Both the position numbers and the translations under genes were made by a program. Source: a virus (taxonomy: Duplodnaviria > Heunggongvirae > Uroviricota > Caudoviricetes). From it: DNA of 14,420 nucleotides. Shown here piece by piece: positions 9,739-10,074 of the stretch. Each line of letters opens with the position of its first letter. Position 1 is the first letter of the stretch. The stretch lies in IMG/VR virus record IMGVR_UViG_2574180220_000003; one strand, 5' to 3'. The notes beneath the pieces were generated by a model, which ran no database searches, was not told the origin of the DNA, and worked only from the letters and a program-made list of their open reading frames with translations.

Positions 9739-10074
9739 TTATGGACTTTGTTGTTTTAGCCCATAAGGACATATTTGCAGAGTGCAACGGTTATTAAAGC
9801 ATTCATTCAATACGTTATCTGTATTTGTAGGGCATTCCTGGCTGTTTTTGATTAAATTCCAGAATGTTTTATTGAATGGTACTACGTTGTAAATGGTTAC
9901 AGGCAGCACTTTGTTATTGAGCATGATGCCTGTGTGAGTCAGTGTAAATATACTTTCAGGAGGTAAGAAAGCATCCGATTGATACCAGATTATTAATTTT
10001 ATTTTACTCCATATGACTGAAAAAGATATTCCGCATGATGGCTGGATAACTGTATCAATCACAATCCACTTCAT
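9739..10074 (-). CDS. Hypothetical protein (111 aa), AT-rich, Cys-containing C-terminal region; function unknown
   Basis: ATG at 10072-10074 (minus strand) preceded by strong SD AAGGAA about 6 nt upstream. AT-rich codon usage unlike the flanking phage genes. Divergent from the nanS-like gene. Confidence 0.45.

What the first reader, a model, noticed from the sequence alone, without database searches (positions are those of the whole stretch)
9739..10074. Well-initiated leftward 111-aa ORF of unknown function, divergent from the nanS-like gene
Of the cargo ORFs this has the best translation signal (AAGGAA 6 nt upstream of ATG) and a terminator-like hairpin just beyond its stop (9685-9715, functional mainly for the opposite strand). 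The protein is rich in I/N/K/W and has a C-terminal Cys cluster ([26 protein letters not shown]). It has no signal peptide and matches nothing I can name. It is transcribed against the late operon, implying its own promoter in the AT-rich 10075-10320 region and therefore expression in the lysogen.
Basis: seen in the sequence. Interest (0 to 1): 0.55.

Follow-up and report, generated by a model that had tools for sequence, protein, structure and literature searches.

The report
Prophage gene iraL, a known RpoS stabiliser
The 111-codon leftward ORF is iraL, an already characterised prophage-borne gene whose protein blocks the adaptor RssB so that the stress sigma factor RpoS is not degraded; it is real and expressed, but not new.

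Summary
The ORF at 9739-10074 (-) is real. Its product is 111/111 identical to IraL of E. coli CFT073 (WP_000871291.1), encoded in the potB prophage. Hryckowian et al. [quoted passage not shown] It scores above NCBIfam's IraM-family cut-off (162 vs 121 bits). It matches the IraM chain of PDB 8TWD (E 9e-32) and is 62% identical to K-12 IraM. The hairpin at 9683-9704 is the terminator of a convergent STnc100-family sRNA (9524-9713, +), not of iraL. iraL is a ~630-bp AT-rich cassette between that sRNA and nanS-p. It occurs in 1440 of 5426 complete E. coli genomes and is under purifying selection (dN/dS about 0.2). Two points go beyond the literature I could read. A 72-76% identical variant sits just downstream of stx2 in Stx2 phages. 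Verdict: already known; low interest.

The parts
9739..10074 (-). iraL coding sequence (111 aa plus stop). Residues 1-78 form the RssB-binding beta-barrel/helix domain. Residues 79-111 form the Cys-rich tail (C81, C92, C97, C102).
   Evidence: ORF list and translation. 111/111 identical to CFT073 IraL, WP_000871291.1. NCBIfam NF007393 scores 162 bits against a cut-off of 121. PDB 8TWD_A matches at E 9.1e-32. The AF2 model (pLDDT 83.5) matches 8TWD_A with TM 0.91 and rmsd 1.2 A. dN/dS is 0.17-0.24.
10080..10085 (-). Shine-Dalgarno sequence AAGGAA, 5 nt before the ATG.
   Evidence: Read directly from the sequence. It lies inside the published 5' UTR. It is conserved, with few changes, in 84 homologous loci.
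10075..10107 (-). 33-nt 5' UTR, with the transcription start at 10107.
   Evidence: This is the 5'-RACE sequence reported for CFT073 iraL (PMC4045071) placed on the window by alignment. One base differs in the UTR, T in the window for C in CFT073. The mapping is my inference from near-identity; it was not measured in this strain.
10108..10143 (-). Core sigma-70-type promoter. The -10 hexamer TATACT lies at 10120-10115. The best -35 hexamer is TTTACA at 10141-10136, with a short 15-bp spacer.
   Evidence: The hexamers were read upstream of the mapped start. The consensus scan did not call this promoter because its spacer limit is 16-18 nt. The segment is nearly invariant across 84 loci. The authors state that the promoter is sigma-70 dependent.
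9704..10333 (.). AT-rich iraL cassette (a 'moron'), lying between the end of the STnc100 homology and the start of nanS-p.
   Evidence: Phage phi296 lacks iraL. Its homology to the window runs over 9486-9703 and resumes at 10334, with an unrelated 231 bp in between. G+C is 35% in the ORF and 29% in the spacer. Homology to K-12 iraM is confined to the coding sequence, 9755-10076.
9524..9713 (+). Neighbouring STnc100-family sRNA gene, convergent with iraL. It is not part of iraL.
   Evidence: Rfam RF02076 scores 132.4 bits against a gathering score of 47, E 1e-30, with a full-length model match. Terminator scan. Fold.

Best explanation
This is iraL, a lysogen-expressed cargo gene ('moron') of a lambdoid prophage. 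It is transcribed from its own sigma-70 promoter (start at about 10107, minus strand) during growth. Its 111-aa product binds the response-regulator-like adaptor RssB. RssB then cannot hand sigma-S (RpoS) to the ClpXP protease, so sigma-S lives longer and the general stress regulon is partly on even in log phase. By homology with the IraM-RssB crystal structure, residues 1-78 form a small beta-barrel with a helix that covers the alpha4-beta5-alpha5 face of the RssB receiver domain, the face that sigma-S needs. Shown by others, for the identical protein: co-purification with RssB, two-hybrid binding to the RssB N-terminal domain only, a halved sigma-S half-life in a deletion mutant, and complementation from the native promoter. 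Shown here: protein identity, family and fold membership, placement of the promoter, purifying selection, distribution and cassette boundaries. Inferred: that the gene is active in this strain, and which residues contact RssB.
For: The protein is 111/111 identical to the CFT073 gene product that Hryckowian et al. named IraL. The 801-bp locus is 99% identical to CFT073, including the published 5' end. NCBIfam's IraM family scores 162 bits against a 121-bit cut-off. 8TWD IraM matches at E 9e-32. The AF2 model matches 8TWD_A with TM 0.91 and rmsd 1.2 A. Published function for this protein: a Delta-iraL mutant lowers log-phase sigma-S and cuts its half-life from about 5 to about 2.5 min; the native-promoter clone raises sigma-S in K-12; IraL co-purifies with RssB and binds its N-terminal domain. 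All five IraM residues that contact the RssB N-terminal domain (I4, I6, W22, K26, I42) are identical in IraL. Every substitution falls in the clusters that contact the C-terminal domain and linker (T13S, L75I, H63N, I64V). This fits IraL's N-domain-only binding. dN/dS is 0.17-0.24. The gene is present in 1440 of 5426 complete E. coli genomes and is annotated as intact in every sampled row.
Against: Nothing here contradicts it. Caveats follow. Expression and activity were not measured in the source strain. The window's promoter differs from CFT073 at -1 (A for G), next to the -35 hexamer (A for T) and at one UTR base, with unknown effect. The -35/-10 spacer is only 15 bp and the generic promoter scan missed the site. 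The 3' end of the mRNA is undefined: no minus-strand terminator was found. The role of the conserved Cys tail is unexplained by the current structural model, which used a 1-78 truncation.
Confidence: 0.95

Rival explanations
1. It is a PmrD-like connector that acts on a different response regulator (for example, protecting phospho-PmrA) rather than on RssB.
For: The N-terminal domain has the PmrD fold: 2JSO, 4HN7 and 2RQX match with TM 0.71-0.73. The family profile reaches PmrD weakly, at E 0.024. The protein database's precomputed Pfam label for the family is PF11183 PmrD.
Against: Sequence identity to PmrD is only 14-20%. There is no NCBIfam PmrD hit. The identical protein was shown to bind RssB and to stabilise sigma-S. 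PmrD lacks the Cys4 tail.
Confidence: 0.03
2. Its selected role is mainly for the phage, not the host: raising RpoS in the lysogen tunes prophage induction, superinfection or survival of the lysogen, or the protein works as an anti-phage defence.
For: IraM-family genes recur at one fixed slot of lambdoid late regions, always opposed to late transcription. They are carried by sequenced phages. PHROG 4407 is a phage protein family.
Against: There is no PADLOC match. In this window the prophage has lost its lysis and morphogenesis genes yet keeps iraL intact, which points to benefit for the host. No published phage phenotype was found in the papers I read. This rival concerns the gene's purpose, not its mechanism, and is compatible with the best explanation.
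Confidence: 0.1
3. It is a chance or decaying ORF in an AT-rich spacer, and is not translated.
For: It is short, has low G+C, has no match in the local Pfam copy, and belongs to a PHROG of unknown function.
Against: It has a full-length match above the curated family cut-off. dN/dS is 0.17-0.24. Eleven DNA alleles among 84 loci encode one protein, although that sample was chosen by protein identity. The tagged protein has been purified and the deletion has a phenotype.
Confidence: 0.01

Closest known systems
IraL of uropathogenic E. coli CFT073 (formerly YcgW; WP_000871291.1), Hryckowian et al. 2014, mBio 5:e01043-14
   Same: The protein is identical, 111/111. The 801-bp locus is 99% identical, including the promoter and 5' UTR. 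The neighbours are the same in a lambdoid prophage: tRNAs, DUF3927, STnc100 region, iraL, nanS-p.
   Different: There are a few promoter/UTR base changes. In this window the prophage is a deletion remnant, whereas the CFT073 potB prophage still carries lysis, head and tail genes.
IraM of E. coli K-12 (b1160), the PhoP/Mg2+-starvation-induced RssB anti-adaptor; structure 8TWD
   Same: Same family and fold. It is 62% identical over 107 residues. The contacts to the RssB N-terminal domain are identical, and it has the same C-terminal Cys4 motif.
   Different: Homology stops at the edges of the coding sequence, so the promoters are unrelated. IraM sits beside e14, not in a late-region slot. IraM binds both RssB domains, IraL only the N-terminal one. 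IraL ends with four extra residues, QQSP.
RssC of Salmonella (IraM/IraL-like anti-adaptor)
   Same: The literature reports it as a member of the same iraL-iraM-rssC family.
   Different: The literature reports only about 47-49% identity. I did not examine it directly.
PmrD, the PhoP-induced connector that protects phospho-PmrA
   Same: The N-terminal domain has the same small beta-barrel fold (TM 0.71-0.73; also noted in PMC10844676). Both bind a response-regulator receiver domain.
   Different: Identity is 14-20%. There is no hit to the NCBIfam PmrD model. PmrD has no Cys4 tail and a different target.

Membership tests
IraM/IraL anti-adaptor family (NCBIfam NF007393) | Full-length sequence match above the curated cut-off | tested here: met
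   162 bits against a cut-off of 121, E 4.7e-48, residues 1-110 on profile positions 1-113 of 114.
IraM/IraL anti-adaptor family (NCBIfam NF007393) | IraM fold: antiparallel beta-barrel with a beta-hairpin and one alpha-helix (residues 1-78) | tested here: met
   Sequence match to 8TWD_A at E 9.1e-32. The AF2 model has pLDDT 88-96 over residues 1-80 and matches 8TWD_A with TM 0.91 and rmsd 1.2 A over 78 columns.
IraM/IraL anti-adaptor family (NCBIfam NF007393) | Conservation of the residues that contact RssB in the IraM-RssB crystal structure | tested here: met
   Cluster I (RssB N-terminal domain) is 5/5 identical. Cluster II is 3/5 identical with 2 conservative changes. Cluster III is 2/4 identical (residue list, alignment).
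IraM/IraL anti-adaptor family (NCBIfam NF007393) | Binds RssB and slows ClpXP degradation of sigma-S | not testable with these tools
   Published for the identical protein: co-purification, two-hybrid binding and sigma-S half-life. Not measured for this strain.
IraM/IraL anti-adaptor family (NCBIfam NF007393) | C-terminal motif C-P-x(8-12)-C-x(3-5)-C-x4-C-P-[YF]-G. This is my own criterion, derived here. | tested here: met
   C81, C92, C97 and C102 are present. In 46 family members with 20-89% identity to the query, the only invariant columns are C81, C97 and C102, and C92 is present in 45 of 46.
IraL specifically (CFT073 type) | At least 95% identity to CFT073 iraL, with the conserved iraL promoter region (criteria used in PMC4045071) | tested here: met
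   100% protein identity. 99% DNA identity over 801 bp including the region upstream.
IraM sensu stricto (K-12 orthologue) | Orthologous locus and promoter beside e14, with near-identity to b1160 | tested here: not met
   62% protein identity. About 71% DNA identity, confined to the coding sequence, with unrelated flanks. The RefSeq name 'IraM' is a family-level label.
PmrD (NCBIfam NF011994) | Sequence match to the PmrD model | tested here: not met
   There is no PmrD hit for this protein at E <= 0.01. The only link is fold similarity and a weak profile match at E 0.024.
Known anti-phage defence proteins (PADLOC-DB) | Match to any defence-system model | tested here: not met
   0 families at E <= 0.01.

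The most novel reading that the evidence does not exclude
The four C-terminal cysteines (C81, C92, C97, C102) are the only fully conserved positions of the whole IraM/IraL family. They would form a zinc-binding or redox-sensitive module that controls the stability or activity of the anti-adaptor. RpoS stabilisation by IraL/IraM would then respond to metal or oxidative status. This tail was cut off for the crystal structure and described there as less conserved and flexible. A related open point: the uncharacterised 72-76% identical variant placed just downstream of stx2 in Stx2 phages may give EHEC lysogens a third, unrecognised anti-adaptor.
Probability: 0.25. Interest if true: 0.4.

Novelty: already known. 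Interest (0 to 1): 0.1.

Why it matters
IraL lets strains that carry this prophage cargo keep RpoS, and so stress and acid resistance and some virulence traits, partly switched on during growth. That is why it is enriched in uropathogenic E. coli and Shigella (PMC4045071). For this scan, the value of the result is negative: the 'unknown cargo ORF' is a named, experimentally characterised gene. The useful residue is threefold. It gives a precise anatomy of the cassette. It shows that the hairpin belongs to a neighbouring sRNA. It supplies two testable leads, the invariant Cys4 tail and the variant linked to Stx2 phages.

Tried and rejected
1. Pfam scan of IraL and of K-12 IraM found no family even at E <= 10, although the protein database's precomputed label is PF11183 PmrD. 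I relied on NCBIfam and the PDB instead.
2. The first AF2 run, with a 16-sequence alignment, was unusable (pLDDT 54.8).
3. The generic sigma-70 scan did not find the experimentally mapped promoter and proposed two other weak sites. I rejected those in favour of the published 5' RACE.
4. Fur box: the best match upstream is 12/19, so there is no evidence for direct Fur control, although IraL levels rise in a fur mutant.
5. PhoP box: there is an 11/12 site at 10170-10186. However, shuffles give p of about 0.06, and the known PhoP-dependent K-12 iraM upstream region scores only 10/12 in the same scan. The scan does not discriminate, so I kept this only as a lead.
6. The literature search for IraM with zinc or cysteine returned only irrelevant papers.
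7. Bougdour et al. 2008 is not held in the library.
8. The window's source genome was not found: the best complete genome covers 94% at 98.6%.
9. The count of synonymous-only alleles among the IMG/VR loci is biased because those loci were chosen by protein identity. I used dN/dS against diverged homologues instead.

Full report
**Observation.** The hairpin is real: a 9-bp stem at 9683-9704 followed by a T-run on the + strand, with a free energy of -20.3 kcal/mol and z = -3.2. The upstream spacer 10075-10319 has 29% G+C and the ORF 35%, against 48% for the window.

**Identity.** An 801-bp segment around the ORF is 100% identical to many E. coli chromosomes. There the ORF is annotated 'anti-adapter protein IraM'. 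The protein passes NCBIfam's IraM subfamily model (162 bits, cut-off 121). It matches the IraM chain of PDB 8TWD at E 9e-32. It is 62% identical to K-12 IraM.

Hryckowian et al. 2014 (PMC4045071) described IraL, a paralogue of IraM that is 58.9% identical to it, on the 'potB genomic island' of uropathogenic E. coli CFT073. I fetched that region. It is a lambdoid prophage next to potB, and its IraM-family gene product is WP_000871291.1. That product is 111/111 identical to the window's protein. The surrounding 801 bp are 99% identical. So the finding is iraL.

**What is known about this exact protein.** These results come from the paper, not from my tests.
- Deleting iraL lowers log-phase sigma-S in CFT073 and in Shigella sonnei.
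- The deletion halves the sigma-S half-life, from about 5 to about 2.5 min.
- A clone reaching only to -100 from the transcription start complements the deletion and raises sigma-S in K-12.
- His-IraL and CBP-RssB co-purify.
- A later paper found IraL levels raised in a CFT073 fur mutant.

**Promoter.** The reported 5' end of the mRNA (ACATCACCAGCAAGGCATAAACAAGGAAACCA) aligns to the window with one base changed. This puts the start at 10107 on the minus strand and gives a 33-nt leader. Upstream lie TATACT (10120-10115) and TTTACA (10141-10136), separated by a 15-bp spacer. The generic promoter scan missed this site because it only allows 16-18 bp. Across 84 homologous loci this core is almost invariant.

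**The hairpin.** Rfam places a full-length STnc100-family sRNA at 9524-9713 on the + strand (132 bits, gathering score 47). The hairpin and T-run are its terminator. STnc100 is a known prophage-associated sRNA (bioRxiv 10.64898/2026.05.13.724894). It is convergent with iraL and ends 25 nt from the iraL stop codon. The same stem can form in the iraL transcript but has no U-run after it. No minus-strand terminator was found, so the iraL 3' end is undefined.

**Cassette and context.** In the related prophages of O104:H4 and CFT073 the order of features is:
- the Q antiterminator;
- a DNA methyltransferase;
- tRNAs;
- a DUF3927 ORF;
- STnc100;
- iraL, in the opposite orientation;
- nanS-p;
- the holin and lysis genes.

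Phage phi296 lacks iraL. Its homology to the window runs over 9486-9703 and resumes at 10334, with an unrelated 231 bp in between. iraL plus its promoter is therefore a cassette of about 630 bp, rich in A+T. Homology to K-12 iraM covers only the coding sequence (9755-10076). This fits the different regulation of the two paralogues.

Other IraM-family members of 60-89% identity sit in the same slot, also opposed to the late genes. In this window the prophage is a remnant. The nanS-p ORF has only the first part of its SASA domain and runs into the C-terminal part of a tail-fibre gene, followed by a tail-fibre assembly gene and a methyltransferase. The lysis, terminase, head and tail genes are gone, yet iraL is intact.

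**Conservation and distribution.**
- The ORF alone is found in 1446 of 5426 complete E. coli genomes. In 1440 of them at least 80% of it is covered, with up to three copies per genome, nearly all on chromosomes. It is annotated as the anti-adapter protein in every sampled row.
- 292 IMG/VR viral contigs encode a relative.
- Among species-representative genomes it also occurs in E. albertii, where the protein is 100% identical. More distant relatives occur in Shigella and Citrobacter.
- dN/dS is 0.17 against K-12 iraM, 0.19 against a 76% variant and 0.24 against an 89% variant.

That criterion is not met, so the ORF stands.

**Mechanism by homology.** In the IraM-RssB structure (PMC10844676), IraM residues 1-78 form a beta-barrel with a helix. 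Cluster I (I4, I6, W22, K26, I42) contacts the alpha4-beta5-alpha5 face of the RssB receiver domain and excludes sigma-S. Clusters II and III contact the C-terminal domain and the linker. In IraL, cluster I is fully identical. Every change falls in clusters II and III: T13S, L75I, H63N and I64V. I infer that this explains why IraL binds only the N-terminal domain. An AF2 model built from a 46-sequence alignment (pLDDT 83.5) matches 8TWD_A with TM 0.91 and rmsd 1.2 A. The next best matches are PmrD structures (TM 0.71-0.73), and nothing else matches.

**The cysteine cluster.** An exhaustive profile search found 93 representatives at E <= 1e-3. In alignments of 31 and 46 full-length members (20-89% identity to the query), the only invariant columns are C81, C97 and C102. 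C92 is present in 45 of 46, and the one exception has its cysteine shifted by one residue. P103 is also present in 45 of 46. All 46 members carry four cysteines, and 45 fit C-x(8-13)-C-x(3-6)-C-x4-C.

The structural paper removed this tail (residues 79-107) because it was proteolysed, and described it as less conserved and flexible. Four invariant cysteines in a cytoplasmic protein suggest a metal site or a redox switch. That is inference only. The model's tail has pLDDT 50-69, and I found no literature on it.

**Other checks.** There is no PADLOC match. PHROG 4407, 'unknown function', matches over the full length. The local Pfam copy gives no hit.

**Leads noticed.**
- A PhoP-box-like repeat lies at 10170-10186, 63-79 nt upstream of the start. 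It matches 11/12 here and 12/12 at the homologous position in a diverged Stx-phage locus. The test is weak, and the K-12 iraM control scores only 10/12.
- A 72-76% identical variant lies between stx2B and nanS-p in Stx2 prophages and phages. Among 46 phage records with a match, 41 fall in the 60-80% identity band, and they are mostly unannotated or called hypothetical.

**Verdict.** The gene is iraL, already known and characterised.

Noticed in passing
window 9524-9713 (+): A full-length STnc100-family sRNA gene (Rfam RF02076, 132 bits against a gathering score of 47). It is convergent with iraL and ends 25 nt from its stop codon. Convergent transcription could couple the two genes.
   Followed up: partly
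window about 9543-9668 (-): RefSeq annotates a partial 'hypothetical protein' pseudogene here in O104:H4 and CFT073. It lies entirely inside the STnc100 sRNA and is probably a spurious call.
   Followed up: no
window 10170-10186 (+): A PhoP-box-like direct repeat, TGTTTA-TTGTT-TATTTA (11/12), lies 63-79 nt upstream of the iraL start in reverse orientation. It is conserved in 82 of 85 iraL loci and is a perfect 12/12 at the homologous place in the diverged Stx-phage locus L091. It is deleted in L094. Shuffle p is about 0.06 here, and the K-12 iraM control scores only 10/12, so this is a lead only.
   Followed up: partly
window 9739-9834 (-): residues 81-111 of the protein, codons 81-111 plus the stop: The four C-terminal cysteines are the most conserved positions of the whole IraM/IraL family. 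C81, C97 and C102 are invariant and C92 is present in 45 of 46 members down to 20% identity. The published structure removed this tail and called it less conserved.
   Followed up: partly
L091-L093 (E. coli GCA_039832115 and GCA_039832205); L102 (Stx2c phage 1717, locus 3001-3324): An IraL-like gene lies between stx2B and nanS-p, opposed to both. Its product is 76% identical in the chromosomal prophage loci and 72-74% in phage records. 41 of 46 phage records with a match fall in the 60-80% identity band, mainly Stx2c, Stx2 and Stx2a phages, and most are unannotated or called hypothetical. It would have escaped the >=95% identity survey of the IraL paper.
   Followed up: partly
window 10320-13809: The prophage is a deletion remnant. 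The nanS-p-like ORF (10320-11132) has DUF1737 and only about the first 139 of 226 SASA-domain positions. It then runs into the C-terminal part of a tail-fibre gene (11021-12502; Collar, Phage_fiber, gp37_C), followed by a tail-fibre assembly gene (12502-13086) and a SAM methyltransferase (13141-13809, -). Lysis, terminase, head and tail genes are missing. Many genomes align only up to 11097.
   Followed up: partly
window 8575-8827 (+): Only two tRNA genes are detected: Met-type CAT at 8575-8650 and Arg TCT at 8751-8827. The related prophages in O104:H4 and CFT073 have three, Ile, Arg and Arg. The middle tRNA-Arg seems degraded or lost here.
   Followed up: no
window 4537-4588 (-) and 12845-13043 (+): Rfam hits to DicF antisense RNA (76.7 bits) and to the IS009 candidate sRNA (224.5 bits). 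The IS009 hit lies inside the tail-fibre assembly gene.
   Followed up: no
protein of window 9739-10074 (-): Database discrepancy. The large protein collection's precomputed label for this family is Pfam PF11183 (PmrD). The local 2025 Pfam-A copy gives no hit for IraL or K-12 IraM even at E <= 10.
   Followed up: no
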